Source: Tubulanus polymorphus
Lineage: Eukaryota; Animalia; Nemertea
DNA: 64,000 bases
Assembly: GCF_964204645.1 (NCBI RefSeq)
Contig: NW_027437448.1
Location: forward strand, 1 to 64,000
Direction of reading: 5' to 3'
Every line of letters starts with the position of its first letter. Within the stretch, counting starts at the first letter, position 1. A model generated the notes under the pieces. It was given only the letters and a program-made list of their open reading frames with translations, was not told where the DNA came from and ran no database searches. Below, piece after piece: positions 5,326-60,993 of this stretch. The position numbers and the translations under genes were made by a program.

Positions 5326-8300
5326 TTAAAAGATCTCACGTAATTTCTGTATCCATAGCGATATCGGTAACCAATGGTAACGTTGTTGTAATTGCGGATG
5401 GAATAAATCGAAATCGGCTTTTTGTAATCTGGTTAAATACGCCTCTAATCCCGCCTGAAAACAGACAACACAATCAAACAATCCACAAGTGAAATATCAG
5501 GTAGAAAGAAATAGAAATAAACTTACTGTTGATAAAAATGCTTTATACGCATTTGGAGGAAGATCAGCTTTCAGAGACCTGGCCTACAATAACAATAGTT
5601 ACACACAGAGTCAATCAGAGTCAGAGTCAGTGTGAATCACCGGTGTGATGTATGTGAATCACCGGTGTGATGTATGTGAATCACCGGTGTGATGTATGTG
5701 AATCACCGGTGTGATGTATGTGAATCACTGGTGTGATGTATGTGAATCACCTAACAAACCTTAGTTAAATGTTGATGCGCGATGCTCGCGATATCATAAA
5801 CTAAATCTTTCACTTTCTGCTCTTTTATTCCCCGAATTAAATCTTGTTGAGATACATTGTACTGAAAAAATAAATTAACTCATGATATATCAAAAAATAT
5901 CGAGATACACGTGTAAAATATCGATATATTTACAAACCTGTATCATTAGATCGAGTGGTAGATAAACATGTTGACGACTCGAGTGAAATAAAGTAGATCT
6001 CAATAATGTAACAATACCATGTGTTTTACCAATATGACTAGCAACATGATCAGCATTTATATCCTTTATACCTGAAGTTTTAATAAACAAACAATTTATT
6101 AAACGCACAGTTTTAACCCTTTCACTGCTGAATAATTAATACCTGCAGGAGATAATTTGAAATTTAAAAAGAATTCCCACCCACTGTGTTGAATAACAGG
6201 CATATATCGCTATAGTGCATCTACACCGCGGTGCAGTGTATTACAGGCATATATCGCTATAGTGCATCTACACCGCGGTGCAGTGTATTACAGGCATATA
6301 TCGCTATAGTGCATCTACACCGCGGTGCAATGTATTACAGGCATATATCGCTATAGTGCATCTACACCGCGGTGCAGTGTATTACAGGCATATATCGCTA
6401 TAGTGCATCTACACCGCGGTGCAGTGTATTACAGGCATATATCGCTATAGTGCATCTACACCGCGGTGCAGTGTATTGTTAGTTACCACTATGTTTGACA
6501 GGTGCTGCCATCTTTCAATAGATATAAAAACTAATAACATCAATACACCGCACTGTGGTGTAGATGCACTGAAAAGGTTCATCTGTGTTGAGATTCAGAT
6601 ACAAACCTAAACTTTCTAGAATCAAATAATAAATCGGAGTCACTGAATTATCACTGTATTCTTCAACTTCATCCATATTCTTAAACTGTTGATTATTCAT
6701 CCGCGATTCCTTTAAAAATGAGTAAATGATTGATTACTCACACGTATAGATGAACAGTAGGAATGAGTAATTGAATATATACTCACTCTAGCTATGAGTA
6801 ATCTCATTAACCATTGTTTAGATATGTTGTGTCTTTTGACAGCCTGAAATATATGAATATTGATCTGTGGCTGGCTTCAAATCGAAAATCTTACAAAGAT
6901 TCGTGAGAAACAAAATATCGAAAGAAGAAAAAAAGTTTTAATTCTTTATGTACAAAAAAATTTGTTGCTAGTTTATTTTCAGTTTTTTTCGACTATGATA
7001 TTCACGTATTAGACATCAGATTTAAGACATCAGATATAAGGAATAAGAAATAAGTGTTTAGTCATCTTCACTTTCATCGTGTTGATTTTGAATCTGTTTT
7101 ACTGGAACAATTGAATCGATTAAAATAATTTCTCGTAATAATTCCACTAAATTCTGCAATAAAAGTAATTTGCCGTAAACCGATTCTGTGAAATCATTTT
7201 CTGAGACGTCGTTCAAATTTCCAGTTCGACAGTTGATCATTTTAACACAATCCACGTCTAAATATTCATTTATTTGTTGTGAAAGTTTTATAAACGATGA
7301 ATTATTGTAAGAATTCTCACAAATAATTTGCGGAACGATTAAAACAGCATCGCTTAACATTCTACACAATAAACTAACATCGGACGGTAACCGTGACAAC
7401 TTGCGTAAACTACGACTGATTAGATATTCAAATACGCCACCAGGGGGCAGTGCAGTCGTCGTTGCCCTGTAATTTGTAGTACTACATGCGCCACTAGGGG
7501 GCGGATCAGTGTTACTAATCAGATATTCGGGAAGTTTAAAAGTTTTCAAATATTTTAAACAGTTTCTGAGTGAATTACAGATAGTTTTATATTGACAATG
7601 ATCAGGAGCGCAGATACTCAGTGAATGAACTGAATAATTACATTTATTCTCCTCAATATTAAACGAATTGTTGAATATAAAATATAATCCATGATTCATT
7701 GGTTTAACGGAGTCAATGACACCGATATTTAAATCATCTGAGATGAGCTCGGTAAAACTGGTGACTGGTAAAACACGGATCAATCTCTGTAATAATCTCA
7801 AATCATCGACATCTATCGATTCTAAAACTGATATTTCATATCGTCGATATTGAGATCTCTGAGATTGCGTTAAACTGCTCGTAATCAATATCAGATCAAC
7901 TCCTAAATCTTTAATACGTTTAAACCATCGATCAGCAGCTGATTGTCTCCATAGCAACGACTCTACGATATCGCTTTCATTGTTGATTTCAATTGTTGCC
8001 GTTTCATTTTTATCGCATTCATCAACAATGATGAATTTAATATCGGTTGCTAATAACGATGGAAATTGAGTCAGTTTATTCCCAGGAATAAATAAACCTG
8101 GATTAACTCGTGATATCGATATATCACTATCAATTGATACAGCGGTGAGATTATCAAAATACTCAATTATAAACTCAATAACTGGATAATTGAGATGATC
8201 AGCAGCAGCAGCAGCAGCAGCAGCAGGTGTGCTGCTGCTGCTGCTGCTGGAATCAATGATAAACTGTGATAATAAATCTGATAATAATTCACTGATGCAT

Positions 8301-9809
8301 GAATTGTATTTTCCTGTTAAACTAGTTTTAAATATTTCTGTTAATTTATCTTTATGTAAATTAATCCTGGAACAATGCGATAAAATCTCATCGAGTAAAC
8401 GTCTCTGTATATCAACAGATCGATACATCGTGCATTGACGCGCTAGCGCCACCATACTGCAACCACTCGTACTAATTATATTCACTAACTCTCCGAGAAT
8501 CAAAATAAACGTTTTAATTCCGTCACCGACGCCTTTATGATGACGCAGCGCCCCCTGGATTATCAGTTTATCAACGGGATGATTATAATTTAAACTAGAG
8601 AGTATGAGATATCCATCAGCGGTGATTAAACTCCGTCCCGATGATGTTGTAATCAGAGTGTACGTCGAACATGGTCCAAATGAACGTTTCAATAAATGTT
8701 TTAATGTTGAACAGACTCTAATTAATTCCTTTAATCCTACTAGTTGCTCATTCTCTTCACAGGTGGCGCTCATCTTAAACCTATATCAAATAAACCAATT
8801 TACCTATAAAAGCCTTAATACCTCTACTACCAAAACCACAATTGGAAGAGAGGGAGGGAATGGGAGAGATGGAGGGAATGGGAGAGAGGGAGGGAATGGG
8901 AGAGAGGGAGGGAATGGGAGGGGGACGATGGGAAATAGAAGGAAATGGGCTAGGGGGAATGAGAGAGGGAGAAAGAGAAGTGACTGAGAGCAGGGGATGA
9001 GAGCAGGGGAGAGGGGGATGAGGGGAAAGAGAAGGGACTGGGAGAGGGGGATGAGGGGAAAGAGAAGGGACTGGGAGAGGGGGATGAGGGGAGAGAAAGA
9101 GGAGGGACTTGTAAGTTATAACTACATGTATAAGTAATGAAATAGTGAACTTACTTTAGTTAATTCCAAAGCGATCGGAGTGTGTGGTGGTTTACCCTAA
9201 AACAAGTCAATAATGAGTGATATAATAATGAGAGAACTGAGTCCGACCCCCACAAATAGTTTATAGATTATACAAACCTTGTATATATTATTGATTGAAT
9301 CTTTCCAGAATTGAATCCTCATTAAACCAATGTTTGAATCACTAACAGTATCATGAATCTAGTATCCAATAAAACAAAAAATATTAATAGATTATTTAAC
9401 ACAGAGGGCGGAATAGGAAGCAGGCACTGGCAGGTGGGGGACACCAAACTGACCTGAGATATTTCCACATTTGCAGCTCTTATTGCGAACACCGTTGATC
9501 TTGTAAGTCGAGGTAGAAGAAGAGTGGCTAAAAAATTCTCATAATCTGATTTACTACAAAAAAAAACAAGTCAAAAGAAGACACATTATTATTTGATTAG
9601 AACCGTCGAAGAACCCTAGTCCCTAGCCCTGGGCCTCTCGTATGGATTCTACTGTTTGTTTAAGGAGATAAAACTAACCGCACTAGATCCATACAGTATT
9701 CACTATGAGTTTTATATACGCTTTCTGAATAATGTTTCACATGGCGCCCGATATTTTGCAAAACATTCGAAATTTTATTTTTCGGCAAAAAAATCATGGG
9801 CGCCGCCAT
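5326..9809 (-). CDS. NDUFAF6: NADH dehydrogenase (ubiquinone) complex I assembly factor 6, multi-exon
   Basis: Spliced minus-strand translation: MAAPMIFLPK..EYCMDLVR/KSDYENFLATLLLP..VFAIRAANVEISQ/..GKPPHTPIALELTK/AVKRHNISKQWLMRL/..GIKDINADHVASHIGKTHGIVTLLR/..DIASIAHQHL/..LQKADFDLFHPQLQQR, colinear with remembered human NDUFAF6. Confidence 0.93.
5631..5751. repeat. 22-bp minisatellite in NDUFAF6 intron
   Basis: gtgaatcaccggtgtgatgtat x5. Confidence 0.9.
6117..6577. mobile_element. Degenerate piggyBac-like MITE containing a 47-bp tandem array (6197-6478, 6 copies)
   Basis: Left end TTAA|CCCTTTCACTGC, right end GCACTGAAAAGG|TTCA (imperfect TIR/TSD); internal unit is an inverted copy of the right subterminal sequence. 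Confidence 0.55.
7058..8773 (-). CDS. BBS10: Bardet-Biedl syndrome 10 chaperonin-like protein, intronless, nested in NDUFAF6 intron 4
   Basis: 571-aa ORF with chaperonin motifs SFGP..LITADG..LSSL..NHP and GDGIKTFILILGEL (BBS10-type GDGxKTF), LPPGGVFE, and C-terminal ESVYGKLLLLQNLVELLREIILIDSIVPVK; own AATAAA on minus strand at 6977-6972. Confidence 0.85.
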   Translation of the reverse strand: MSATCEENEQLVGLKELIRVCSTLKHLLKRSFGPCSTYTLITTSSGRSLITADGYLILSSLNYNHPVDKLIIQGALRHHKGVGDGIKTFILILGELVNIISTSGCSMVALARQCTMYRSVDIQRRLLDEILSHCSRINLHKDKLTEIFKTSLTGKYNSCISELLSDLLSQFIIDSSSSSSSTPAAAAAAAADHLNYPVIEFIIEYFDNLTAVSIDSDISISRVNPGLFIPGNKLTQFPSLLATDIKFIIVDECDKNETATIEINNESDIVESLLWRQSAADRWFKRIKDLGVDLILITSSLTQSQRSQYRRYEISVLESIDVDDLRLLQRLIRVLPVTSFTELISDDLNIGVIDSVKPMNHGLYFIFNNSFNIEENKCNYSVHSLSICAPDHCQYKTICNSLRNCLKYLKTFKLPEYLISNTDPPPSGACSTTNYRATTTALPPGGVFEYLISRSLRKLSRLPSDVSLLCRMLSDAVLIVPQIICENSYNNSSFIKLSQQINEYLDVDCVKMINCRTGNLNDVSENDFTESVYGKLLLLQNLVELLREIILIDSIVPVKQIQNQHDESEDD

Positions 9810-13260: not shown

Positions 13261-15432
13261 TCAATAAGTCGAGCCCTCGGGAGGTTGCGGTAACTTGACG
13301 TTTTCTTTAAGAGTCATTGTTTTTCTGAAATCTGCCAATAATGTTTTTATACGCGATTTTTCCGACCAACGATTTAAAAATGGAAATTTCTTCACTTCGA
13401 TCTGTGAAAAATAAAACATGGTAATTTTCAGTTATAAATCCTCAATATTTCAGGTGAACGCACGCGATGACTGAGGTTAGACTGAGGTTAGACTGAGGTT
13501 AGACTTACGTTGCCGTTGCTACCAACTCCATTCATATTTATTCTAGTTATAAATCTCACTGTCGGAGCCTCTTTCGGATATTTAGGTCCACATATAATTC
13601 GTAATGAATAAATTCTATTTTCACAAGTCGTCTGAAATTCGAAGAGAAGAAACTGTTATAATTGTTGATACTACGGAGCTGGATCTGATTGAACACGTCG
13701 TTCTGATCAGGTACAACTTCAGCCCGCCGGCTTGACCACATACAACCCCTACAGCCCATGGGCTGGGTTATATGCGGCCAAGCCCACGGGCTGAAGGGAT
13801 TTATGTGGTCAAGCCCTCAGGCTGAAGCGGTTGAGTGTTGTAGAGCCCGCGATGGTTGTAACTATGGTCGAGGCCACAGACCGGATACTAACCCTCACAG
13901 GTCCGACTATTGTCGCAGACCGGATACTAACCCTCGTAGGTCCGACTATTGTCCCAGACCGGATACTAACCCTCACAGGTCCGACTATTGTCGCAGACCG
14001 GATACTAACCCTCGTAGGTCCGACTAATGTCCCAAACCGGATACTAACCCTCGCAGGTCCGACTATTGTCCCAGACCGGATACTAACCCTCACAGGTCCG
14101 ACTATTGTCCCAGACCGGATACTAACCCTCACAGCTCCGACTATTGTCCCAGACCGGATACTAACCCTCACAGGTCCGACTATTGTCCCAGACCGGATAC
14201 TAACCCTCACAGGTCCGACTATTGTCCCAGACCGGATACTAACCCTCACAGGTCCGACTATTGTCCCAGACCGGATACTAACCCTCGTAGGTCCGACTAA
14301 TGTCCCAGACCGGATACTAACCCTCACAGGTCCGACTATTGTCCCAGACCGGATACTAACCCTCACAGGTCCGATTATTGTCCCAGACCGGATACTAACC
14401 CTCACAGGTCCGACTATTGTCCCAGACCGGATACTAACCCTCACAGGTCCGACTATTGTCCCAGACTGGATACTAACCCTCGCAGGTCTGACTATTGTCC
14501 CAGACCGGATACTAACCCTCGCAGGTCCGACTATTGTCCCAGACCGGATACTAACCCTCGCAGGTCCGACTATTGTCCCAGACCGGATACTAACCCTCAC
14601 AGCTCCGACTATTGTCGCAGACCGGATACTAACCCTCGTAGGTCCGACTAATGTCCCAGACCGGATACTAACCCTCACAGGTCCGACTATTGTCCCAGAC
14701 CGGATACTAACCCTCACAGGTCCGACTATTGTCCCAGACCGGATACTAACCCTCACAGGTCCGACTATTGTCCCAGACCGGATACTAACCCTCGCAGCTC
14801 CGACTATTGTCGCAGACCGGATACTAACCCTCGCAGGTCCGACTATTGTCCCAGACCGGATACTAACCCTCGCAGGTCTGACTATTGTCCCAGACCGGAT
14901 ACTAACCCTCGCAGGTCCGACTATTGTCCCAGACCGGATACTAACCCTCGCAGGTCCGACTATTGTCCCAGACCGGATACTAACCCTCACAGCTCCGACT
15001 ATTGTCGCAGACCGGATACTAACCCTCGCAGGTCCGACTATTGTCCCAGACCGGATACTAACCCTCACAGGTCCGACTATTGTCCCAGTCCATGTTGATA
15101 AAGTTATATCATGATCATCTTCTAAACCCCAACTTATATTTCCATCTCCTCCTTTTTCTCCTTGTTCTAATTCTTCAAGAAGGACGAAATTGCGAGGAGT
15201 TACAATCCCTCCTGATCCTAATAAAACAAAACAATCAATCAATCAATTACAGTTCCAGGACTAAGGGCTGGGGACTGGCGAGTGGCCCAGTGGAAGATTT
15301 ATGTCAAGGCTCTACTGGTGGTTGTGGGCGTGGCCCAGGGCACACTGATGATCGGGTAGCAGGCTGTGTAGAGGTTTTATATAATCAGGAGATATTTTTA
15401 CCTTGTTTCGAGCTCGGATCTGAGGTCGCCAT
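13261..15432 (-). CDS. UBE2V: Ubiquitin-conjugating enzyme E2 variant (UEV1/MMS2 family), copy A
   Basis: Exons 15432-15402, 15217-15063, 13631-13509, 13401-13261: [54 protein letters not shown]/..[23 protein letters not shown]/..[15 protein letters not shown]; no catalytic Cys. Confidence 0.93.
13879..15088. repeat. 39-bp minisatellite (~31 copies) built from the UBE2V-A exon 2/intron 2 junction
   Basis: Minus-strand unit TGGGACAATAGTCGGACCTGTGAGG|GTTAGTATCCGGTC = last 25 nt of exon plus first 14 nt of intron. Confidence 0.93.
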
Positions 15433-15796
15433 CAGTGAAGAGCGCCGAATACCCCGACTCTACTAGGAAAAAAACACGCCTTTCCGCGTATGTCCTATGA
15501 AAAACATACCGGACCGAGACCTATTAAACTTGGCCTTGGAAAAATAAGATCAATTTTAAAACAGAAGTTCTTAGTTAGAGTTAATAATTTTATCAATATG
15601 AAATTGATTTGGTTTGTTTCAATTGTAAATATGATGAAAATCATTTTTAGGAAGTAAATTGTGTAACATAGTGAATTGAATTGATTGGTCAGAGAGCTCG
15701 CTGTGAAACCCGCCGGTAAATATTATAGCAATAAACATCTGAAATTCGCATAAAATACTTTCAATTTATACCTAATTGGGTGTTTACTGTTTGGTG

Positions 15797-16139
15797 AAAG
15801 TGCAGATCTGCACCTCTCTGCGTTAACGGTTCAATCAATTACATTAAATATAATTGTTTCAGATTCAAAATGTCATCAGACATCAGCAATTCATACATTG
15901 CCATAAATAGTAGTTAGTTACCTAATCGTTGGTGGTAGCTTTTTATAATCGGATGGGCTTATACCTGACTGTGGTTTGTGAAAGTATCCGATCGTGAAAC
16001 TAAACCACAGACAGGTTACTATATCTAACATTGCCATTGGTTAATTTTAAGATATCTTCACTGACACTGGAAAGATTTTAGCCTGGATTCTATCATTCAG
16101 TAGATTGCGTCAATCACGAGAGGCGCTGATCTGCACTTT
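15797..16139. mobile_element. MITE-like element with ~30-bp imperfect terminal inverted repeats
   Basis: aaagtgcagatctgcacctctc at left is the reverse complement of gagaggcgctgatctgcacttt at right (2 mismatches). Confidence 0.6.
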
Positions 16140-16268
16140 AACCCCCTGTTTTATAAGTTAATTATCAGCTATTCTTTTATAATCGACTTTCGCATTTTTT
16201 AACTCCAGAATCACGAGAAGGAACAAACCTGAAACGGGCACCTGCCGCTTCTTACATTATCCATAGTA

Positions 16269-16562
16269 GTCATACTGTCTGGCTCTTAACCCTGGCCCTG
16301 GGCCCCCTCGTCATACTGTTGGGCTCATAACCCTGGCCCTGGGCTCCGTCGTCATACTGTCTGGCTCTTAACCCAGGCCCTGGGCCCCGTCGTCATACTG
16401 TCTGGCTCTTAACCCTGGCCCTGGGCCCCGTGGTCATACTGTCTGGCTCTTAACCCAGGCCCTGGGCCCCGTGGTCATACTGTCTGGCTCTTAACCCTGG
16501 CCCTGGGCCCCATCGTCATGCTGTCTGGCTCTTAACCCTGGCCCTGGGCCCCGTCGTCATAC
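16269..16562. repeat. ~41-bp minisatellite (~7 copies)
   Basis: gtcatactgtctggctcttaaccctggccctgggccccgtc. Confidence 0.9.
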
Positions 16563-16845
16563 ATGGTTATGCTCTTCCTGACCCTAGGCCCATTCAGCCG
16601 GGCTTTACCCGGGCTAATGAGGCCCGAGAAGCTCTTACACTATGTGAAACTCGGTTAGAGAAATTGTTTAGAGTATGAGTTATTTATTAGACTGGTTGTG
16701 GGTATTGTTCACAGTTCTCTTCAGAACTCTGTTTGTTAAACATAATACAGTCTGATCAATCTGGTGTCTTATAATTCACCCTGGAATATTTATTCATTCG
16801 GTTTATTTATTGACCTTCCACATTCTTGTAGGCTTTTACCTCTAG

Positions 16846-18476
16846 GAGCAGAGCACGCTACTGTTCTCATGGTGGCTCGGAGCGCGCTACTGTTCTCAGG
16901 GAGGCTCGGAGCACGCTACTGTTCTCAGGGTGGCTCGGAGCACACCGCTGTTCTCAGGGTGGCTCGGAGCAAGCCGCTGTTCTCAGGGTGGCTCGGAGCA
17001 CACTGCTGTTCTCAGGGTGGCTCGGAGCACACCGCTGTTCTCAGGGTGGCTCGGAGCAAGCCGCTGTTCTCAGGGAGGCTCGGAGCACGCTGCTGTTCTC
17101 AGGGTGGCTCGGAGCAAGCCGCTGTTCTCAGGGAGGCTCGGAGCATGCCGCTGTTCTCAGGGTGGCTCGGAGCACGCTACTGTTCTCAGGGTGGCTCGGA
17201 GCACGCTACTGTTCTCAGGGTGGCTCGGAGCACGCTACTGTTCTCAGGGTGGCTCGGAGCACACCGCTGTTCTCAGGGTGGCTCGGAGCAAGCCGCTGTT
17301 CTCAGGGTGGCTCGGAGCACACTGCTGTTCTCAGGGTGGCTCGGAGCACGCTGCTGTTCTCAGGGTGGCTCGGAGCACGCCGCTGTTCTCAGGGTGGCTC
17401 GGAGCAAGCCGCTGTTCTCAGGGTGGCTCGGAGCACGCAACTGTTCTCAGGGTGGCTCGGAGCACACCGCTGTTCTCAGGGTGGCTCGGAGCAAGCCGCT
17501 GTTCTCAGGGTGGCTCGGAGCAAGCCGCTGTTCTCAGGGTGGCTCGGAGCACACTGCTGTTCTCAGGGTGGCTCGGAGCACGCCGCTGTTCTCAGGGAGG
17601 CTCGGAGCATGCCGCTGTTCTCAGGGTGGCTTGGAGCACACCGCTGTTCTCAGGGAGGCTCGGAGCAAGCCGCTGTTCTCAGGGTGGCTCGGAGCACGCC
17701 GCTGTTCTCAGGGTGGCTCGGAGCAAGCCGCTGTTCTCAGGGTGGCTCGGAGCAAGCCGCTGTTCTCAGGGTGGCTCGGAGCAAGCCGCTGTTCTCAGGG
17801 AGGCTCGGAGCACACCGCTGTTCTCAGGGTGGCTCGGAGCAAGCCGCTGTTCTCAGGGTGGCTCGGAGCACACTGCTGTTCTCAGGGTGGCTCGGAGCAA
17901 GCCGCTGTTCTCAGGGAGGCTCGGAGCAAGCTGCTGTTCTCAGGGAGGCTCGGAGCAAGCTGCTGTTCTCAGGGAGGCTCGGAGCAAGCCGCTGTTCTCA
18001 GGGTGGCTCGGAGCAAGCTGCTGTTCTCAGGGTGGCTCGGAGCAAGCTGCTGTTCTCAGGGTGGCTCGGAGCAAGCTGCTGTTCTCAGGGTGGCTCGGAG
18101 CACGCCGCTGTTCTCAGGGTGGCTCGGAGCAAGCCGCTGTTCTCAGGGAGGCTGTTCTCAGGGTGGCTCGGAGCACGCCGCTGTTCTCAGGGTGGCTCGG
18201 AGCAAGCTGCTGTTCTCAGGGAGGCTGTTCTCAGGGTGGCTCGGAGCAAGCTGCTGTTCTCAGGGAGGCTCGGAGCATGCTGCTGTTCTCAGGGAGGCTG
18301 TTCTCAGGGTGGCTCGGAGCAAGCTGCTGTTCTCAGGGAGGCTGTTCTCAGGGTGGCTCGGAGCAAGCTGCTGTTCTCAGGGAGGCTCGGAGCAAGCCGC
18401 TGTTCTCAGGGTGGCTCGGAGCATGCCGCTGTTCTCATGGTGGCTCGGAGCATGCTGCTGTTCTCAGGGTGGCTCA
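16846..18476. repeat. 29-bp GC-rich minisatellite (~55 copies)
   Basis: ctgttctcagggtggctcggagca(c/a)gccg; lacks stops on +, generating the three spurious 500-aa ORFs. Confidence 0.95.
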
Positions 18477-18662
18477 GTTTGGTTATATTTTGTACCAATT
18501 GACTCAATTTTCTAGGTTTTTTTGTTACTCAATTTGTTTCGCTTTTATAATAATGTACTATGGTTAGATTTTTGTCCCAGGTTAAACTCCTAATTGCAGT
18601 AGCTTTAGTCACTGAATACAACGTTATCACTTTGGAATCTGATTTGTTCTGTTGCAGATAAA

Positions 18663-19267
18663 ATGACGGTTGTACCTCGTAATTTCCTATTACTTGAAGA
18701 GTTAGAGGAAGGACAGAAAGGAGGTGATGGAAATATCAGCTGGGGTTTAGAAAAAGACGATGATATGACTTTAACAACTTGGACTGGAATGATTCTAGGA
18801 TTGCCTCGGGTAAGTATCATACCTCCTCACCTCCTCATTATACCTCCTCACCTCTCTCATTATACCTCACCTCCTCATCTCTTGATTGTTTCAATATTTT
18901 CAGACGACTTGTGAAAATAGGATCTATAATTTACGAATTATATGCGGACCTAAATATCCTAAAGAGCCCCCTATTGTCAGCTTTACTACTAGAATCAATA
19001 TGGTGGGAGTAGATGGATATGGCAATGTAAGTTCTGAATCTAGTTCCACAGTTGTGGACTCATTTCCACAGTAATGTGGACAGAATGGAAGTGGTTAATG
19101 ATGCTGATATATTTGTATGATTTCAGATTGATATGAAACGTTTCTCATTTTTCAACCAATGGTCTAAAGATTCTAGTATCAAAACAGTTCTGACTGAAAT
19201 ACGAAAAGCAATGGGTCATAAAGAGAATGCTAAATTGCCTCAACCTCCGGAGAATTCAACTTATTGA
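18663..19267 (+). CDS. UBE2V: Ubiquitin-conjugating enzyme E2 variant (UEV1/MMS2 family), copy B
   Basis: Exons 18663-18809, 18904-19026, 19127-19267: [46 protein letters not shown]/..[16 protein letters not shown]/..[15 protein letters not shown]; same intron positions as copy A. An upstream exon may exist (acceptor at 18657). Confidence 0.92.
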
Positions 19268-21889: not shown

Positions 21890-24800
21890 ATGCAGCTACA
21901 AACGGCATTTTACTAACTGTCGCCTGTACGAGTTTATTTCGCACTTTTATTTGAACTTTCGTATTATTTTTACTGAACGGTGTTTCTATGTAACCCATAG
22001 AGATGTTTGTTTTCAGTGTTGGTGACGGCGAACCGCTCGTTATTTTACCAATTTCTTTTTCACCAGATTCATCAAAGATTACAGCGCCACCTACAATAAA
22101 CAATACATTACAGAAATCAGAATCAATTCTTGGTGAACATATGGATACACCTGGGCCTGGATGCTTACCCTGAGCAGGAGCCCTGGATATCCGCCTGCCG
22201 GATACCCACCCACCAGAACCCGGATACTTACCCCGGGTTGGAGCCCCGGATACCCGCCCACCAGACCCCGGATACTTACCCCGGGTTGGAGCCCCGGATA
22301 CCCACCCACCAGAACCCGGATACTTACCCCGGGCTGGAGCCCCGGATACCCGCCCACCAGAACCCGGATACTTACCCCGGGCTGGAGTCCCGGATACCCG
22401 CCCACCAGAGCCCGGATACTTACCCCGGGCTGGAGCCCCGGATACCCGCCCACCAGAACCCGGATACTTACCCCGAGCTGGAGCCCCGGATGTTGAAACA
22501 AATCCAACTCTTTTCTTTGTCGGTTTATTCTTTAATTGTTCCAATATGATTTGAGCCCCGGGAAAGTCCGCAGTTTTCCTCCTACGTTTACCTGTATCCA
22601 AATCAATAAAACAAACACAAAACTGAGTAAATAAGGAATAAGCTTTGGTTAGTTGGATGTGGTCCGGACTGGTCGGGACCGGTGTGTACCTATAGTCCAC
22701 GCGAGAGTGCCCTCTATTGGTGTAGTATTCTCATCTATATCGTTTCCGTATAAACACAATCCAGCCTCTAATCTCAGTGAATCACGTGGTCCAAGTCCGG
22801 CTAATTTCACATCCATTGTTTTACTAGACAGTAATATCTCACAGATTTCAGCAGCTTTATCTTCAGGTACCGATAACTAGAAATAGATCGCACATACACA
22901 TAGACAGATACCTGAGATAGACAGATACCTGAGATAGACAGATACCTGAGATAGACAGCTATCTGAGATAGACAGTTATCTGAGATAGACAGATACCTGA
23001 GATAGACAGATACCTGAGATAGACAGCTATCTGAGATAGACAGATACCTGAGATAGACAGATACCTGAGATAGACAGATACCTGAGATAGACAGCTATCT
23101 GAGATAGACAGCTATCTGAGATAGACAGATACCTGAGATAGACAGTTATCTGAGATAGACAGCTATCTGAGATAGACAGCTATCTGAGATAGACAGCTAT
23201 CTGAGATAGACAGATACCTGAGATAGACAGATACCTGAGATAGACAGATACCTGAGATAGACAGATACCTGAGATAGACAGATACCTGAGATAGACAGTT
23301 ATCTGAGATAGACAGCTATCTGAGATAGACAGCTATCTGAGATAGACAGCTATCTGAGATAGACAGCTATCTGAGATAGACAGCTATCTGAGATAGACAG
23401 TTATCAGATAGACAGTAATTGAGACAGCCACCAGATAGACAGACAGCTGTCAGATATTTACCTCTACCCCGTCCTCACCAGTATAACCACATCTCGTCAC
23501 ACGACAGTTTTTAATTCCACATAAAGTTGTTATGACACTCGTCATAAAATATAATTTACTGAGATCGGTTTCAACGAGTGGCTGTAACGCTTTTACCATT
23601 CCGGGACCTACAATACACAATACATACACAATACACAATACGTCGTCACAAAGGAGACCCTTTAATCAGCTGCAGCCCATGATAAACTGGTCAACTCTTA
23701 ATCAGCTGCAGCCCCTGATAAACTGGTCAACTCTTAATCAGCTGCAGCCCCTGATAAACTGGTAAACTCTTAATCAGCTGCAGCCCATGATAAACTGGTC
23801 AACTCTTAATCAGCTACAGGCCTCGATAACTATTTTACCTTGAAGAGCTAATAAAGCCATATTGATTTTTTCTACATTCACATCTAAACCTTTACCGATC
23901 ATTTCACTTTCTTTTGCCTGGAAATAGAAAATAAACAATTGAATGAATCATTTCTATCGCCATGAATCACTCATTATTCAAACAATCGTCATAGTTACCT
24001 TCATATTATTGAAATCTTTATCAGCGCAGGCAGCATTAGAAACTACGTATAAATAATCTTCATTAGTTTTAGTGATAATTAAATCATCGTTAATTCCGCC
24101 ATTATCGCGAGTAAATAACGATAGAGTTCCCTGATTATCCTTCAATCCTTCGACATCGGCCACTGTTAAACTCTCCATAAATTCAATTCTATTTTTACCG
24201 GTGACTTTAGTTTGAAGCATGTGAGACACGTCAAATATCACTGCTTTATTACGGCAATGTTCATGAGATATAATCAACGAATCTTTATATTGAACTGGCA
24301 TCAAATATCCGGCGAACGGAACCATTTTACCACCTTGACTGACATGAAAATCATATAAACATGTCTTCTTCAAATCAGCCTAAAATATATTCAATGAAAA
24401 TCAACAATGTATTAAAATAGCCTACAGGACTCTACCACCAACGATGGAGCCATCCTCCGTGCTCCACTCCTCTTCCCACAGTGGAGCCATCCTCCGTGCT
24501 CCAGACTCCTCTTCCCACAGCGGAGCCATCCTCTGTGCTCCAGAATGCACCACCCACCATGATGGAGCCATCCTCGGTGCTCCAGACTCAACCAACCACC
24601 ATGATGGAGCCATCATCCGTGCCCCAGACTCGACCACCCACCAACGATGGAGCCATCCTCGGTGCTCCAGACTCCACCACCCACCATGATGGAGCCATCC
24701 TCTGTGCCCCAGACTCCACTACCCACGTTGGAGCCATCCTCCATGCCGGCCCAGACAGTGATTTGGATTATCTGGTGCCAGAATATTCTAAATTGGCCCC

Positions 24801-32724: not shown

Positions 32725-35700
32725 TAAAGCCACCAGGAGTCCATTTACCTGTTAGGGGGGCCGGGGCCAAGACTCATCGGGCAAATGTGATGAGGGTTTG
32801 GTTAATCGTTAAGGGGTACACCCTGCAGGTGCTTGTTAAATTTAGCACTAATCAAACCACAGGTAAAGCCACCAGGAGTCCATTTACCTGTTAGGGGGGT
32901 CCCTGGGCCCAGGGCCAAGACTCATCGGGTAAATGTGATGAGGGTTTGGTTAATCGTTAAGGGGTGCACCGTGCAGGTGCCTGTTGAATGTAGCACCAAT
33001 CGGACCACAGGTAAAGCCACCAGGAGTCCATTTACCTGTTAGGGCGGTCCCTGGGCCCAGGGCCAAGACTCATCGGGCAAATGTGATGAGGGTTTGGTTA
33101 ATCGTTAAGGGGTACACCCTGCAGGTGCTTGTTAAATATAGCACTAATCGGACCACAGGTAAAGCCACCAGGAGTCCATTTACCTGTTAGGGGGGGTCCC
33201 TGGGCCCGGGGCCAAGACTCATCGGGCAAATGTGATGAGGGTTTGGTTAATCGTTAAGGGGTACACCCTGCAGGTGCTTGTTAAATTTAGCACTAATCGG
33301 ACCACAGGTAAAGCCACCAGGAGTCCATTTACCTGTTAGGGGGGTCCCTTGGCCCGGGGCCAAGACTCATCGGGCAAATGTGATGAGAGTTTGGTTAATC
33401 GTTAAGGGGTACACCCTGCAGGTGCTTGTTAAATTTAATCGGACCACAGGTAAAGCCACCAGGAGTCCATTTACCTGTTAGGGGGGTCCCTTGGCCCGGG
33501 GCCAAGGCTCATCGGGCAAATGTGATGAGGGTTTGGTTAATCGTTAAGGGGTACACCCTGCAGGTGCTTGTTAAATTTAGCACTAATCGGACCACAGGTA
33601 AAGCCACCAGGAGTCCATTTACCTGTTAGGGGGGTCCCTGGGCCCGGGGCCAAGACTCATCGGGCAAATGTGATGAGGGTTTGGTGAATCGTTAAGGGGT
33701 ACACCCTGCAGGTGCTTGTTAAATTAAGCACTAATCGGACCACAGGTAAAGCCACCAGGAGTCCATTTACCTGTTAGGGGGGTCCCTTGGCCCGGGGCCA
33801 AGGCTCATCGGGCAAAAGTGATGAGGGTTTGGTTAATCGTTAAGGGGTACACCCTGCAGGTGCTTGTTAAATTTAGCACCAATCGGACCACAGGTAAAGC
33901 CACCAGGAGTCCATTTACCTGTTAGGGGGGGTCCCTTGGCCCGGGGCCAAGGCTCATCGGGCAAATGTGATGAGGGTTTGGTTAATCGTTAAGGGGTACA
34001 CCCTGCAGGTGCTTGTTAAATTTAGCACTAATCGGACCACAGGTAAAGCCACCAGGAGTCCATTTACCTGTTAGGGGGGTCCCTGGGCCCGGGGCCAAGA
34101 CTCATCGGGCAAATGTGATGAGGGTTTGGTTAATCGTTAAGGGGTACACCCTGCAGGTGCTTGTTAAATAAAGCACTAATCGGACCACAGGTCAAGCCAC
34201 CAGGAGTCCATTTACCTGTTAGGGGTCCCTTGGCCCAGGGCCAAGGCTCATCGGGCAAATGTGATGAGGGTTTGGTTAATCGTTAAGGGGTACACCCTGC
34301 AGGTGCTTGTTAAATTTAGCACTAATCGGACCACAGGTAAAGCCACCAGGAGTCCATTTACCTGTTAGGGGGGGTCCCTTGGCCCGGGGCAAAGACTCAT
34401 CGGGCAAATGTGATGAGGGTTTGGTTAATCGTTAAGGGGTACACCCTGCAGGTGCTTGTTAAATTAAGCACTAATCGGACCACAGGTAAAGCCACCAGGA
34501 GTCCATTTACCTGTTAGGGGGGTCCCTTGGCCCGGGGCCAAGGCTCATCGGGCAAATGTGATGAGGGTTTGGTTAATCGTTAAGGGGTACACCCTGCAGG
34601 TGCTTGTTAAATTTAGCACTAATCGGACCACAGGTAAAGCCACCAGGAGTCCATTTACCTGTTAGGGGGGTCCCTGGGCCCGGGGCCAAGACTCATCGGG
34701 CAAATGTGATGAGGGTTTGGTTAATCGTTAAGGGGTACACCCTGCAGGTGCTTGTTAAATTTAGCACTAATCGGACCACAGGTAAAGCCACCAGGAGTCC
34801 ATTTACCTGTTAGGAGGGTCCCTTGGCCCGGGGCCAAGGCTCATCGGGCAAATGTGATGAGGGTTTGGTTAATCGTTAAGGGGTACACCCTGCAGGTGCT
34901 TGTTAAATTTAGCACTAATCGGACCACAGGTAAAGCCACCAGGAGTCCATTTACCTGTTAGGGGGGTCCCTGGGCCCGGGGCCAAGACTCATCGGGCAAA
35001 TGTGATGAGGGTTTGGTTAATCGTTAAGGGGTACACCCTGCAGGTGCTTGTTAAATTTAGCACTAATCGGACCACAGGTAAAGCCACCAGGAGTCCATTT
35101 ACCTGTTAGGGGGGTCCCTTGGCCCGGGGCCAAGGCTCATCGGGCAAATGTGATGAGGGTTTGGTTAATCGTTAAGGGGTACACCCTGCAGGTGCTTGTT
35201 AAATTTAGCACTAATCGGACCACAGGTAAAGCCACCAGGAGTCCATTTACCTGTTAGGGGGGTCCCTTGGCCTGGGGCCAAGGCTCATCGGGCAAATGTG
35301 ATGAGGGTTTGGTTAATCGTTAAGGGGTACACCCTGCAGGTGCTTGTTAAATTTAGCACTAATCGGACCACAGGTAAAGCCACCAGGAGTCCATTTACCT
35401 GTTAGGGGGGTCCCTGGGCCCGGGGCCAAGACTCATCGGGCAAATGTGATGAGGGTTTGGTTAATCGTTAAGGGGTACACCCTGCAGGTGCTTGTTAAAT
35501 TTAGCACTAATCGGACCACAGGTAAAGCCACTAGGAGTCCATTTACTTGTTAGGGGGGGTCCCTGGGCCAAGACTCATCGGGCAAATGTGATGAGGGTTT
35601 GGTTAATCGTTAAAAGGTACACCGTGCAGGTGCCTGTTGAATTTAGCACCAGTCGGACCACAGGTAAAGCCACTAGGAGTCCATTTACTTGGTAGGGGCC

Positions 35701-38800: not shown

Positions 38801-41800
38801 ACTCATGCACCACGTAAACATTGGAAAGAATTTAGATATTCTTGTTGGAAATGATCAGGTAATCTTCTACTATTTCACTTGGAAGTTGTTTAAAACAATG
38901 TAAAACGCTTGCATGACATTGTGGCATGCTCTAGGGGAAATTTTTTCCCAGTTACGTTTTAACTCCTGACACTATTAATCATTATAATCAGTATTACTCA
39001 ATAGCGTATTTTATTATCATGATCATTTGAAGTGCTTTGATCAAAGTAAATCTTGAGTGTCAAGAATCAGTCATCATGTTTTTTGTATGTGTGATTTCAG
39101 TATGTTTATGAGTTATATGCTGTCATTACTCATCGAGGTGTCGAGGTAACCAGTGGGCACTATGTTGCATATCTGAAAGTTATGAATGGTTGGGCTCTTG
39201 CCGATGATGATAATGTAAGTTTAGCAAATCAATAATGAAATGAAAGCTAATTTATGATCAAAGTATGATTTGGGTCGTTGAATTCTAATGCAGTTCATGT
39301 TAATACAAATGTATTCCAAAACCTGTCATCAATTAAATCTATTGATATATAATGAGATTAGGCTATACATTATTTTTTCATCTGTCAGGTTTCCAGTATG
39401 AGAGCTCCAATCTTTCAAGGAGGCGAGCCGTATGTTTGCTTTTATGAAAAGAAAATTCACTCTGTAAGTACAATTTGCTTATTCATATTGATACACGGAT
39501 ATATGTATCAATAACCACAATCAATTGCAAAATTGTAACTCCTGGTGGCTTTACCTGTGGTCCGATTAGTGCTAAATTTAACAAGCACCTGCAGGGTGTA
39601 CCCCTTAACAATTAACCAAGCCCTCATCACATTTGCCCGATGAGTCTTGGCCTTGGGCCCAGGGACCCCCCTAACAGGTAAATGGACTCCTGGTGGCTTT
39701 ACCTGGGGTCCGATTAGTGCTAAATTTAACAAGCACCTGCAGGGTGTACCCCTCAACGATTAACCAAACCCTCATCACATTTGATTAGTTTTTAGTATAT
39801 GGTCACCAGGGGACATTGAATATTGGAGTATTCTGATTGTTGAGCAGCATTTCAAACCACATCCCATGGTGTCCCTGGATAGTTTAATATTGACAAGTTC
39901 GATCCCTACGTTATCTTGACTTAAGCACGTACAGAAGATTCCTATCAGTTTAATCAATCACATCAGTTTAATCAAAAGACCTTGCCTACAAGGCTGTCAA
40001 ATTAGTATTATCATGTATAGTATATATTTAGCCCACATTTGATTTTTGAAGTGTTAGAAATTTTCTTATCATTATTACTATAAGATATATCATTTATTAT
40101 AGAGGTTTTGATTCGCAATTATTGTGCAAAGCTTGGAGCACAGGTTGACATGACCACAGTTTTTTATGTATTGCTCAGCCTTTTTTTAAATGTCTTTCAA
40201 TTCATATATTGCAGGTTAATACATCAGAAATGCCTCAAACTGTAAGTAGAAATAATTTATTTCTTATTCCTGAATTGTACCTCATTGGGTTTTGAACCAA
40301 CTTTTGACGTATGTGGTCCTGAGCTTAATTTCTATATATAAACGTCTGAATCAGACAGTGATTATGTATATTTGTGACAATTTGCTGAAATCTAATTTAC
40401 CGGTAGTTAACTCAACCTATGTTCAACGGAGGAATGATAAATTGCTGATCTTAGTTAAGATTCAAATAGATGATTTGGGGAATTAATACACTTATCATAT
40501 CGAAATTTGTATGGGAAAATTTAGAGGTTTAACAAGTTTTGAACCTATGAGTTTTAGAAGTTTTGTAGAAAAAGATTTTTAATTAATCATTGTTTAAAGT
40601 TTGGCCCATCACCATAAGAAAAATTTGGTCGATCGGACTCAAGTTGGCAGTCCTATGACCTTTTTAGTGCCCAAAAAGGTCAATTTTGGCACAAATTCTG
40701 AGTCCTGTAGCTTCTTACTGGTTTGCCATTTCTCATTGCAATTTGTGATGGGTATTCTTTGGACCCCTAGTTTGTGTGGCGAAAATGGACCGTGTTTAAC
40801 ATCTCCGGTTCGTTTTCGTTACAACATCTCATCATCCTTTCCTCCGATATCTCCAGGTGGAGCGATTTCATATATATAAATATGTTTTGTATTGTGTAAA
40901 TTTGTATCTGTGTACTACTGTCAATTTTTCGGGCGTCTCGTTACGGTCTATCGCGTTCGGGTTGGGGGTTTTGGTCGGTTTTTGTCGGGAAATAGCACGA
41001 TCACATCTTTTTATTCGGCTTTTATCATAAATTCGCGCTATGACATTCTGGTTACTTACCGGCAGTCTATTCCTTTGTATTCGCTTTTCAATTTTGAACT
41101 GCCGTTTTGTGATGTCATAATCCCACTTTCATCATATTTCCGTAGTTTGATTTGTTCTCATCGGTTTCTCGCTCGCGAGTTGAGCATTGTCGCACTGCTA
41201 GGCGGCTCACTATTATTGCGCGCGGATATCAAACTCGGGTTTGATTTTCAAATTCCGCTTTTAACCTTTCAAACTTATTCTTTTGGCATTTTTATCGCGT
41301 ATATCGTGATATCACTAATGGCCAATGAGCGCCCCCGGATTTCTATAAAAGGCGGGTCGTTCGAGCACAGTCATTCTGATTTTCGAATCACTCGCACGTA
41401 CTTATAGTATCAGCGAACAACTTACAGCAATTAAATTCTTAATCAAATATAACTATTAAAATGTAAGCGATAAGAGACGCACCCTCTCTATCCCGCCTTC
41501 GGGTTGGATAGGGTCATCTTGTCCAACCCGAAGGATGAGATATATTCACTTTTAGATCGTCCGGCCAAGTTAGATGCTGACCGAGTTTGATTTTGGCCAA
41601 GTTTGATTCCGGCCCACTTTGATTTCAACCAAGTTTGATTTTTTCGGTCTCCTAGTCTAGCAAAATCTACCGACCGAGAGCGTCACTATGATGGACAGTC
41701 ATGATCAATTTTGTTTAGTTTAGTCGAGCCGACTTTTGTTCATACGTAGAATTATTTTCCGGGCGTATTGATCGTCACATCATTTTCAACTACGACTGTA

Positions 41801-57627: not shown

Positions 57628-60600
57628 ATGGATAGTGTGGAAGCCGTAGCTGTAGAACAGACCGCTGAACTCACTAATAAACCGGTAATTCGTAGATTCG
57701 TTCCAACCGATCATGATTTGGAAGCCTCTTTCCGACTCACTAAATTTGCCGACCTGAAAGGATGAGGGTGTAAAGTCCCCCAAGAAGTTCTGCTCAAACT
57801 TCTGGAGGGACTTCAAGAACAGGAAAGCAATGAAAGTGTAGTCGCAGGAGATGGTGGAGATGGAACCTATGGATACGGTGCCGGCGGTGCTGCTGCACAG
57901 TTACCTAGAATCGGTAAGTTGTTCATTGCTGGTCCCGAGCCCGAGGAGCCACGTTCAACTTCACGCACATTTTTCATTTCCGAATAAACTTCAAATTCTT
58001 ATAATTTATCGCCATCTGATTCGATAAAAATGATTATTTATTATATTTGAAACATTTGAACAAGAATCAGTTTTATTTAGCGGTCTATTTATGGTTAAAA
58101 TGGTGATCTAATTTCATCGATTCATCTCCCGTTCGTTTCTCTTATTTTCAACATGGCGGATCAAGTCGAGTCACATGATCTGTATATTTGTAAACACGAG
58201 CACGTGTTCAACTACTGGTTCGTCGACTGTCACATGTTTACGACGAGTGGGTTCGAATCCTGAATTAATGGTGTTTGTATTTGTTATTTCAGGTATAGGA
58301 ATGGATTCGTGCGTGGTACCTCTGAGGCAACCTAATTTATCATTGGTGCAAACAACTGATTTTTTCTACCCATTGGTTGATGATCCGTACATGATGGTAT
58401 CTTTTTAGATTTTTTGTGACGTTTTTTTATCCTGGCAGCTTGAGGTGGCCCGGATTGAGGGAGGTGCTGAGACAGGCTGGGTCACTCAGCAGCTGATATA
58501 TTATATAACTGATTTTGGTATATGTATTTTAGGGTAAGATAGCGTGTGCTAATGTATTGAGTGATCTGTATGCTATGGGTGCAATGGATTGCGATAATAT
58601 GTTAATGCTGTTAGGAGTCAGTCAGAAGATGAGTGATAAAGAGAGAGATGTCGTCGTTCCTTTAATCATGAGAGGATTCAAGGTAAAAATCTCCTAAATC
58701 ATTATTTATAAGTCCGTACTTCAATTCATGGTAAAATACTAAACTTCTGTTAAGATGTCTATTTGTGACGTAGTTTTTTGAGTAACACAAGTTGAGGCTT
58801 TACTTCAGACACCTGCACCTGTAGTTGTGGTTATATATTGTAGGATACAGCTGAAGAGGCAGGTACCGCTGTCACTGGAGGTCAAACTGTTCTCAATCCA
58901 TGGTTAACTATTGGGGGCGTGGCTACATCAGTCTGTCAATCAAATGAGTTTATCATGTAAGTTTTTTGTTCGAAGTCTTTTTCGTTAAATTGAGATTCCG
59001 TATTTTAGTGTTTGTGTATTTACGCTAGGCCCGATGATGCGGTAGCCGGGGATGTTTTAGTGTTAACCAAACCGTTAGGAACGCAAGTAGCGGTAAACGC
59101 TCATCAGTGGTTGGACGTTCCTGAAAAATGGAACCGTTTAAAATTAGTCGTCAGCGAAGAAGACGTAAGAAAAGCTTATCACAGAGCGATGACTAGTATG
59201 GCTAGACTGAATAGAACAGGTTCGTACACCTCCCCTCATCCCCCTCCCTATCCTCTCTCCCTTCCTCTCCCCTTCCCTCATCCCTCTAGACTGAATAGAA
59301 CAGGTTCGTACACCTCCCCTCATCCCCCTCCCTATCCTCTCTCCCCCTCCCCTATCCTCTCCCCTTCCCTCATACCTCTAGACTGAATAGAACAGGTTCG
59401 TACACCTCCCCTCATCCCCCTCCCTATCCTCTCTCCCCCTCCCCTATCCTCTCCCCTTCCCTCATCCCTCATACCTCTAGACTGAATAGAACAGGTTCGT
59501 ACACCTCCCCTCACCCCCCTCCCCTATCCTCTCTCCTATCCTCTCCCCCTCCCCTATCCTCTCCCCTTCCCTCATCCCTCCCCCTCTAGACTGAATAGGA
59601 CAGGTTCGTACACTTCCCCTCATCCCCCTCCCTATCCTCTCTCCTATCCTCTCCCCCTCCCCTATCCTCTCCCCTTCCCTCATCCCTCCCCCTCTAGACT
59701 GAAAAGGACAGGTTCGTACACTTCCCCTCATCCCCCTCCCTATCCTCTCTCCTATCCTCTCCCCCTCCCCCTCTAGACTGAATAGAACAGGTTCGTACAC
59801 CTCCCCTCATCCCCCTCCCTATCCTCTCTCCTATCCTCTCCCCCTCCCCTATCCTCTCCCCTTCCCTCATACCTCTCCCTTTAGACTGAATAGAACAGGT
59901 TCGTACACCTCCCCTCATCCCCTTCACCCCCCTCCCCTTTTGTCCCTCCCCTCTTCATCCCCCTTCTTTCTCTAGACTAAATAGAACAGGTTCGTATACC
60001 CTCTTCCCTCCTCATCTCCCCAAACCCCCTCCTCCCCTTCACATCCCCTCCCTCTCCTCCATCCTCTTCATTAGACTGAATCAAACAGGTTCATCTCTCC
60101 TCATCCCCTCTCCCTCCACCCTCTCCCCTCCCCTGTCTCCTCTCCCCTCCCTTCCCTCATCCATCTTCCTCTAGACTGAATAGAACAGGTTCGTACACCC
60201 CTTACCTCCTCTCCCTCTATCCTCCCTCTGATCTTCATCCCCTCCCTCTCCCCTTTCCTCCCTCTTCTCATCCCCCACCCCTTCCATCTCCTCTTTTCCT
60301 CTACCTACCACCCTCTCCTCCATCCTCTCCTCCATCCTCTCTCCCTGTACCTACCACCCTCTCCTTAATCCTCTCTCCCTCCATCCTCTCTCCCTCCACC
60401 CTCTCCTTAATCCTCTCTCCCTCCCTGTGGTGTATATAATAATTAATTGTTTATATTTGTAGCTGCGAAATTAATGCATAAATACAGCGCTCACGGTGCA
60501 ACAGATGTCACTGGTTTCGGGTTGCTAGGACACGCTAATAATTTGGCTCGTATTCAAAAACGTGAAGTCAGTTTCGTTATTCATAATTTACCGGTTATCG

Positions 60601-60993
60601 CTAAGATGGCCGCCGTTAGTAAAGCATGCGGAACTACGTTCGGTTTATATCAGGGGATGTCAGCTGAAACATCAGGTTCGTTCATTTCTCTGTCTATGTG
60701 GCTGTCTGTCCGTGTGGCTGTCTGTCTGTCTGTGGCTGTCTGTTTGTCTGCCTGTTTTACTGTAATCTCAGTATTTATTTATTGATCTGTTTTGTTTATA
60801 ATTGATAGGTGGATTATTAATCGCGTTGCCACGGGAACAAGCCGCTGCGTTCTGTAAAGATATCGAGAGACAGGAAGGATATCAGGCGTGGATTATCGGA
60901 ATCGTCGAGAGGGGTAACCATACAGCACGGATCATCGAGAAACCTCGAGTGATTGAGGTCCCGGCCAAAGAGAAAGACAATGAATCGTGGTAG
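57628..60993 (+). CDS. SEPHS2: Selenophosphate synthetase (SPS2-type selenoprotein, Sec at codon 46), 7 coding exons
   Basis: Exons 57628-57913, 58293-58396, 58533-58682, 58844-58956, 59029-59219, 60463-60675, 60809-60993; [18 protein letters not shown] (TGA 57763-57765), [82 protein letters not shown]. Confidence 0.95.
57773..57813 (+). promoter_or_regulatory. Sec redefinition element (SRE) hairpin just 3' of the UGA
   Basis: AAGTCCC-CCA(A)GAAGTT / AACTTCTGG-(A)-GGGACTT stem with 7-nt loop, starting 8 nt after UGA; preceded by GGGTGT. Confidence 0.8.
59202..60200. repeat. Variable-length tandem array (11 copies) of the SPS exon 5/intron 5 junction with polypyrimidine spacers
   Basis: ctagactgaatagaacag|gttcgtacac at 59202, 59286, 59378, 59477, 59586, 59694, 59773, 59881, 59972, 60071, 60171. 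Confidence 0.92.

What the first reader, a model, noticed from the sequence alone, without database searches (positions are those of the whole stretch)
13879..15088. About 31 tandem in-frame copies of a real splice donor in UBE2V-A
Seen: the 39-bp unit is exon end plus GTTAGT donor, length divisible by 3, with no stop on the coding strand, so every copy is a usable donor; using the nth adds n x [11 protein letters not shown](V/A/T)R inside the E2 fold. Inference: either the spliceosome strictly selects the first of ~31 near-identical donors, or a ladder of isoforms is made and array length acts as a tunable splicing element.
Basis: partly seen in the sequence, partly recalled or inferred. Interest (0 to 1): 0.7.

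Follow-up and report, generated by a model that had tools for sequence, protein, structure and literature searches.

The report
Splice-donor minisatellite in ribbon-worm UBE2V intron
A 39-base piece spanning the end of an exon and its splice signal is repeated 31 times in an intron of a ribbon worm's ubiquitin-pathway gene; the assembled RNA uses only the first copy, so it is likely a harmless repeat of a kind already known from human and lancelet genes.

Summary
The array is real. It has 31 identical donor cores at exact 39-nt spacing (13877-15088, minus strand) with an open coding frame. DNA reads of another sample hold the unit at roughly 24-43 copies. The host is a UBE2V paralog whose public protein is labelled Tubulanus polymorphus. 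In 2 of 2 spliced runs (one sample) the only contig entering exon 3 comes from donor 1. No ladder form was seen, but contigs drop rare forms, so minor use is not excluded. The in-frame property is chance-level (about 1 in 5). Arrays fill 25% of this window, and 3 of 35 donors are reiterated (also AMT and SEPHS) against 0.9-1.6 expected. Predicted RNA structure does not favour donor 1, so position likely decides, as shown for human F7 intron 7. The kind is published (F7, CBS, 6-16, LMNB2, PDGF; lancelet 'mirages'), and this scan has noted it before on other DNA. Verdict: new member of a known kind, low interest.

The parts
13877..15088 (-). 39-bp minisatellite, 31.1 copies; its first 26 nt are the end of exon 2, the rest lies in intron 2
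   Evidence: unit at high depth in DNA runs X7 and X1
15057..15065 (-). [quoted passage not shown]
   Evidence: spliced contigs in X3 and X6; spliced translation identical to P0001
13887..15026 (-). 30 further donor copies (first bases 15023 down to 13892, every 39 nt), identical to donor 1 over -3..+9; no use seen
   Evidence: no unit-to-exon-3 joint among the contigs laid
15402..15432 (-). UBE2V-A exon 1 (coding part)
   Evidence: X3 joint skipping 184 nt
15063..15217 (-). UBE2V-A exon 2 (155 nt)
13632..13876 (-). unique 3' part of intron 2 (245 nt) with the acceptor; intron is 1431 nt from donor 1 and would be 261 nt from donor 31
13509..13631 (-). UBE2V-A exon 3
13261..13401 (-). UBE2V-A exon 4 (coding part)
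   Evidence: joint 13401/13509 in X3 and X6
18663..19267 (+). UBE2V-B, head-to-head paralog with the same two intron positions; its equivalent intron is 94 nt with no reiterated donor
22158..22491 (-). second case in the window: AMT last intron, 48-bp unit, 7 donor copies including the first; annotated protein uses the first
59202..60200 (+). third case in the window: SEPHS intron, 11 donor copies including the first at 79-109 nt spacing; 6 of the 10 downstream copies are out of frame; annotated protein uses the first

Best explanation
This is a minisatellite whose 39-nt unit spans the exon 2/intron 2 junction of a UBE2V paralog; the assembled RNA is spliced at the first of its 31 donors, and the array is likely a tolerated, near-neutral repeat. 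Shown: the anatomy, high copy number in independent DNA reads, and donor-1 splicing in contigs. Inferred: (1) it arose by slippage or unequal crossover between two short look-alike stretches 39 nt apart (5 of 6 bases match at the array ends) and grew by further unequal exchange (a four-unit block recurs at units 2-5 and 12-15); (2) the donor is picked by position, not by sequence or RNA structure: the first donor downstream of the defined exon commits, as shown experimentally for human F7 intron 7; (3) because the whole array then leaves with the intron, it costs little and persists in a genome that makes minisatellites at a high rate.
For: Donor-1 joint in X3 (789-nt contig covering exons 1-4 unbroken, depth 13) and in X6 (329 nt, depth 5.8): after the 26 nt shared by all units, the upstream letters are exon 2 in both. 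Spliced translation is identical to public protein P0001, a one-member cluster; the longer-protein search returned no insert-bearing form among 26 candidates. All 31 donors are identical at -3..+9, and donor 1 ranks 31, 29 and 31 of 31 for predicted accessibility; fold z = -0.03. Arrays cover 24.6% of the window and lie in 16 of 35 annotated introns; 3 reiterated donors against 0.9-1.6 expected, P(3 or more) 0.06-0.22. The SEPHS case is mostly out of frame, so frame-keeping is not needed. Precedent: PMC1557585, PMC3087553, PMC3902484.
Against: The RNA evidence is two contig sets of one sample at depth 13 and 5.8; contigs drop rare variants. X3 also holds an unlinked 69-nt contig of the unit at depth 4.4. 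It fits pre-mRNA or genomic background (about 0.3x per copy), but minor isoforms could also give it. None of 9 variable unit positions in the window, or 12 with X7's variants, falls in the 9-nt donor core (P 0.07 and 0.02; longest invariant run P 0.13 and 0.04; post hoc), a weak hint of constraint on the copies. Depth ratios in X2 and X4 (about 3) are well below the 9-13 expected from the window's array; this is unexplained. In human 6-16 and CBS the next two donors are also used.
Confidence: 0.8

Rival explanations
1. Leaky first-donor choice (6-16/CBS type): donor 1 dominates, but donors 2-3 give a few percent of in-frame mRNA with 13 or 26 extra residues after R61, as tolerated noise without function.
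For: Human 6-16 and CBS use the two next donors (PMC1557585 Introduction). The frame is open, so such mRNAs would likely escape nonsense-mediated decay. Unlinked unit contig in X3.
Against: No unit-to-exon-3 contig in X3 or X6 and the main contig is unbroken. A full 69-nt cyclic unit contig needs at least two intron-type units, so donor 2 alone cannot give it (inference).
Confidence: 0.3
2. Functional ladder: array length or unit content tunes UBE2V-A isoforms in some tissue or stage, and selection keeps the copies in frame with intact donors.
For: Unit is 3n and stop-free; the donor core is invariant in the window's 31 copies and shows no listed variant among about 70 X7 reads (P 0.02-0.07, post hoc); the AMT array is also 3n.
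Against: No ladder form in RNA contigs or in public proteins. 3n plus stop-free is expected about 1 time in 5. The SEPHS array is mostly out of frame. Paralog B has no such array. Orthologous structures have no insertion at this position in the one alignment shown.
Confidence: 0.07
3. Assembly artefact: the array is over-expanded or misplaced in the assembly.
Against: X7 raw reads of another sample: about 70x on the unit against 6-10x on flanks, with 58 and 53 head-to-tail joints, giving about 24-43 units. X1 ratios are 12.5 and 12.7 against 12.3 and 13.1 expected. 12 ordered unit types.
Confidence: 0.03
4. RNA structure or unit variants silence donors 2-31 rather than position.
For: All donors have low predicted accessibility.
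Against: Donor 1 is predicted the least or nearly least accessible in 3 of 3 window sizes; the fold is no better than shuffles; nine downstream units have the same last 25 nt as exon 2 and the same donor.
Confidence: 0.07

Closest known systems
Human F7 intron 7 37-bp VNTR (Borensztajn et al. 2006, PMC1557585; seen: abstract, passages of Introduction and Results, whole Discussion)
   Same: First unit spans the exon/intron boundary; identical donors follow; only the most upstream is used; structure does not explain the choice.
   Different: 5-9 copies against 31; 4 exon nt per unit against 25; 37 nt (frame-shifting) against 39 nt in frame; mammal against ribbon worm; usability of the copies was shown by mutation in F7 and is untested here.
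Human interferon-inducible 6-16 intron 2, CBS intron 13, LMNB2 and PDGF intron 4 minisatellites (known only from the Introduction of PMC1557585; the original 6-16 paper was not held)
   Same: Long runs of reiterated donors (25 pseudo-sites in 6-16; 15-20, 10-15 and 16-18 units in the others).
   Different: 6-16 and CBS also use the next two donors; LMNB2 and PDGF use only the first, as seen here at contig resolution.
Lancelet 'mirages' in Adh3, globins, troponin C and PGBD5 (PMC3087553 and PMC3902484; passages seen)
   Same: Invertebrate minisatellite-like duplications of exon/intron boundaries, in several genes of one genome, reported not to disturb splicing; unstable in length.
   Different: Mirages include acceptor-side cases; this window has 3 donor-side and 0 acceptor-side cases among 35 introns (not significant). 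Copy number here is higher than the 3-6 given for BflGb6; different phylum.
UBE2V1/UBE2V2 (UEV1A, MMS2) ubiquitin E2 variants
   Same: Host protein aligns over residues 9-149 to human UBE2V2, E 6e-54; Pfam UQ_con above cut-off.
   Different: One of two head-to-head paralogs in this window; no reiterated donor in the other.

Membership tests
Junction-spanning minisatellite (F7 IVS7 type; lancelet 'mirage') | Head-to-tail array of a 10-160 bp unit | tested here: met
   period 39, 31.1 copies
Junction-spanning minisatellite (F7 IVS7 type; lancelet 'mirage') | First unit spans a real exon/intron boundary, so the splice site is reiterated in the intron | tested here: met
   donor at 15063/15062 used in X3 and X6; 30 downstream copies
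Junction-spanning minisatellite (F7 IVS7 type; lancelet 'mirage') | Normal mRNA is made from the most upstream donor | tested here: met
   2 of 2 spliced runs, one sample, contig level; public protein P0001
Junction-spanning minisatellite (F7 IVS7 type; lancelet 'mirage') | Copy number varies between individuals (VNTR) | tested here: inconclusive
   X7 has unit variants absent from the window's units (unit positions 9, 12, 25), so content differs; length estimates 24-43 overlap 31; no spanning reads
F7-type silent pseudo-sites | Downstream copies work when the first donor is inactivated | not testable with these tools
   needs a minigene; all copies match donor 1 at -3..+9
6-16/CBS-type multi-donor minisatellite | Donors 2-3 are also used in mRNA | tested here: inconclusive
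   no such contig in X3 or X6, but contigs drop rare forms and no raw RNA reads were listed
UBE2V/MMS2 E2 variants (host gene) | UBC fold sequence with UEV/MMS2 proteins as closest solved relatives | tested here: met
   Pfam PF00179 46.7 bits; 14 of 17 solved-structure hits named UBE2V1/2 or Mms2, including the best 12
UBE2V/MMS2 E2 variants (host gene) | No catalytic cysteine; partner of UBE2N/Ubc13 (recalled) | not tested
   no alignment to an active E2 and no binding test was run

The most novel reading that the evidence does not exclude
The 30 downstream donors are kept intact and in frame by selection (no variant in the donor core among 12 variable unit positions) and give a low-level, allele-length-dependent ladder of UBE2V-A isoforms in some tissue or stage, so that a mutable repeat tunes a K63-ubiquitin cofactor; the AMT array would be a second in-frame case in the same 10 kb.
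Probability: 0.08. Interest if true: 0.55.

Novelty: new member of a known kind. Interest (0 to 1): 0.17.

Why it matters
As it most likely stands, it is one more natural case of a known rule, now in a ribbon worm. One point has modest value: array-free introns in this window are short (median 121 nt), where pairing across the intron would be expected to favour the last donor (261-nt intron), yet the RNA uses the first (1431 nt). With three such introns in 64 kb, this genome likely holds many, so its RNA-seq could test first-donor choice and leak rate genome-wide outside vertebrates. If a selected, length-dependent ladder were shown, it would be a repeat acting as a dial on protein isoforms, which would be of real interest.

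Tried and rejected
No whole genome is held, so no genome-wide count and no check for copies of the unit elsewhere. No RNA holder was listed as such; X3 and X6 were recognised as spliced only by their joints. 6 of 10 listed runs were laid (X1, X2, X3, X4, X6, X7); X5, X8, X9, X10 were not. Reads were laid on the two flanks with two units each, not across the array, so the donor used was read from the letters upstream of the shared 26 nt. RNA-structure masking: rejected. A bias of arrays to the 5' end of introns: not significant, 11 of 16, P 0.21. Donor-over-acceptor asymmetry, 3 against 0 of 35: too few. In one search the translation check for UBE2V-B, ING3 and SEPHS used start coordinates off by one; corrected, intron list unchanged. 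Single-sequence fold of P0001: pLDDT 37.8, not used, so 'loop between two strands' for the insertion point is recalled, not shown. The search for relatives with natural insertions at R61/T62 was queued and never returned. Pfam matches of the read-through frame to PCF11_RFEG_rpt and SAF are treated as repeat artefacts: no matched stretch passed on its own. Rfam: 0 hits in the window. A paper search for U1 double-occupancy at about 40-nt spacing returned 0 papers, so that idea was dropped. Searches naming Tubulanus polymorphus (listings and abstract starts only) showed no paper on its repeats; this is not proof that none exists. PMC10078293 and PMC12783039 (passages) added nothing on reiterated donors. 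No supplements were read.

Full report
OBSERVATION. Tandem Repeats Finder gives a 39-bp array at 13877-15088 with 31.1 copies. On the minus strand it holds 31 AGG|GTTAGT donors at exact 39-nt steps, from 15062 to 13892. Each unit is 14 intron bases followed by the last 25 bases of exon 2. There are 12 unit types among 30 full units, 97% identical to the consensus. The coding frame runs through without a stop.

THE GENE. Four exons (15432-15402, 15217-15063, 13631-13509, 13401-13261) translate to a 149-aa protein identical to public record P0001, named 'ubiquitin-conjugating enzyme E2 variant 2-like [Tubulanus polymorphus]'. It aligns to human UBE2V2 at E 6e-54 with no gap at the R61/T62 junction. 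A head-to-head paralog at 18663-19267 has the same intron positions; its equivalent intron is 94 nt without a reiterated donor.

IS IT IN THE DNA? Ten runs were listed and six were laid on two flanking stretches that carry two units each. Raw genomic reads X7, from a sample that differs from the window at five fixed sites in the unique part, cover the unit about 70-fold against 6-10-fold on the flanks, with 58 and 53 head-to-tail joints. This gives about 24-43 units. In X1 the depth ratios are 12.5 and 12.7, against 12.3 and 13.1 expected from the window's own array. Against this, X2 and X4 give ratios near 3 where 9-13 are expected. The tool warns that contig depth is no copy number; the cause is unexplained and could be a shorter allele or library bias. 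No read spans the array, and copies of the unit elsewhere in the genome could not be excluded. X7 shows unit variants at positions 9, 12 and 25 that the window lacks, so unit content differs between samples.

WHICH DONOR IS USED? X3 and X6 (one sample) are spliced. X3 has one unbroken 789-nt contig (depth 13) through exons 1-4; it leaves the genome at 15063 and continues with exon 3. From the other side, in both X3 and X6 (329 nt, depth 5.8) the contig entering exon 3 carries the 26 nt shared by all units and then exon 2 letters, not repeat letters. So donor 1 is the only form seen, in 2 of 2 spliced runs. X3 also has an unlinked 69-nt contig of the unit at depth 4.4, while unique intron sequence has no contig. 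Spread over about 13 matching copies this is about 0.3x each, under 3% of the mRNA depth, which fits pre-mRNA or genomic background (inference). Minor isoforms could also give it, and contigs drop rare forms, so a minor ladder is not excluded. P0001 is a one-member cluster and the longer-protein search found no insert-bearing form among 26 candidates.

IS THE ANATOMY SPECIAL? I annotated 35 introns in seven genes; all models translate without internal stops except one in-frame TGA in SEPHS. Arrays cover 24.6% of the window (46 merged arrays) and lie in 16 of 35 introns. Three donors are reiterated (UBE2V-A, the last intron of AMT, intron 5 of SEPHS) and no acceptor. With arrays arising at random, 0.9-1.6 such donors are expected, P(3 or more) 0.06-0.22. 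The public AMT and SEPHS proteins use the first donor too; these are annotations, not reads. Six of the ten downstream SEPHS copies are out of frame. A 3n period occurs in 14 of 41 arrays and a stop-free 15-mer after 63 of 105 donor phases, so 'in frame and open' has a chance near 0.2. One result leans the other way: none of 9 variable unit positions (12 with X7) lies in the 9-nt donor core, P 0.07 and 0.02, or 0.13 and 0.04 as a longest-run test. This is post hoc and weak.

MECHANISM. Origin (inferred): the two ends of the array share a short look-alike stretch 39 nt apart, 5 of 6 bases, as slippage or unequal crossover would need; a four-unit block recurs at units 2-5 and 12-15. Choice of donor: sequence cannot decide, because all donors are identical at -3..+9. 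Predicted structure does not favour donor 1, which ranks 31, 29 and 31 of 31 in accessibility, and the fold is no better than shuffles. Position is what remains. For human F7 intron 7, 50 constructs showed that the downstream copies work but only the most upstream functional one is used (PMC1557585; abstract, passages and Discussion). I infer the same here. It is notable that this holds although array-free introns in the window have a median of 121 nt and the last donor would give a 261-nt intron. Since the array leaves with the intron, it is likely near-neutral.

WHAT IS KNOWN. The Introduction of PMC1557585 lists F7, 6-16 (25 pseudo-sites, next two also used), CBS (two also used), LMNB2 and PDGF (first only). 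In lancelets such boundary duplications are named 'mirages', occur in Adh3, globins, troponin C and PGBD5, and are reported not to disturb splicing (PMC3087553, PMC3902484; passages). This scan's earlier notes list the same layout in other genomes, with first-donor use in most, a hint of multiple donors in one and last-donor use in another (unchecked AI notes). It works like F7 intron 7, and it meets the three features of the class that could be tested; length polymorphism and minor donor use are inconclusive.

VERDICT. Observation confirmed; interpretation partly supported; new member of a known kind; interest 0.17. The most novel reading not excluded, a selected low-level isoform ladder, has a probability of about 0.08.

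Noticed in passing
window 22091-22491 (-): AMT last intron: 48-bp unit reiterates the donor (7 copies with the first); the whole 381-nt intron is a multiple of 3 and open in frame, so any copy or full retention would keep the frame. The public protein uses the first donor. No reads were laid here.
   Followed up: partly
window 59202-60424 (+): SEPHS intron 5: 11 copies of the exon end plus a weak donor, separated by variable pyrimidine tracts that end in AG just before most copies, so each copy also looks like a tiny exon. The public protein uses the first donor.
   Followed up: partly
window 57628-60993 (+), TGA at 57763: The selenophosphate synthetase gene has one in-frame TGA in the LKG-x-GCKVP motif, likely selenocysteine (recalled motif); the public annotation starts downstream and calls it inactive. 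Rfam found no SECIS at the gathering score.
   Followed up: partly
window 13261-19267: Two UBE2V paralogs lie head to head with a 41-bp x7 and a 29-bp x56 array between them.
   Followed up: partly
window 32757-35698 and 39540-39780: A 148-bp x20 array has a dispersed inverted partial copy about 4 kb away; both flank or interrupt exon-like pieces of what looks like a degenerate ubiquitin-specific protease gene (read by eye, not tested).
   Followed up: no
whole window: 46 merged tandem arrays cover 24.6% of a gene-dense window; 16 of 35 annotated introns carry one.
   Followed up: yes
window 7058-8785 (-) and 43207-43971 (+): A single-exon chaperonin-like gene (Pfam Cpn60_TCP1) and an integrase-core fragment (Pfam rve).
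   Followed up: no
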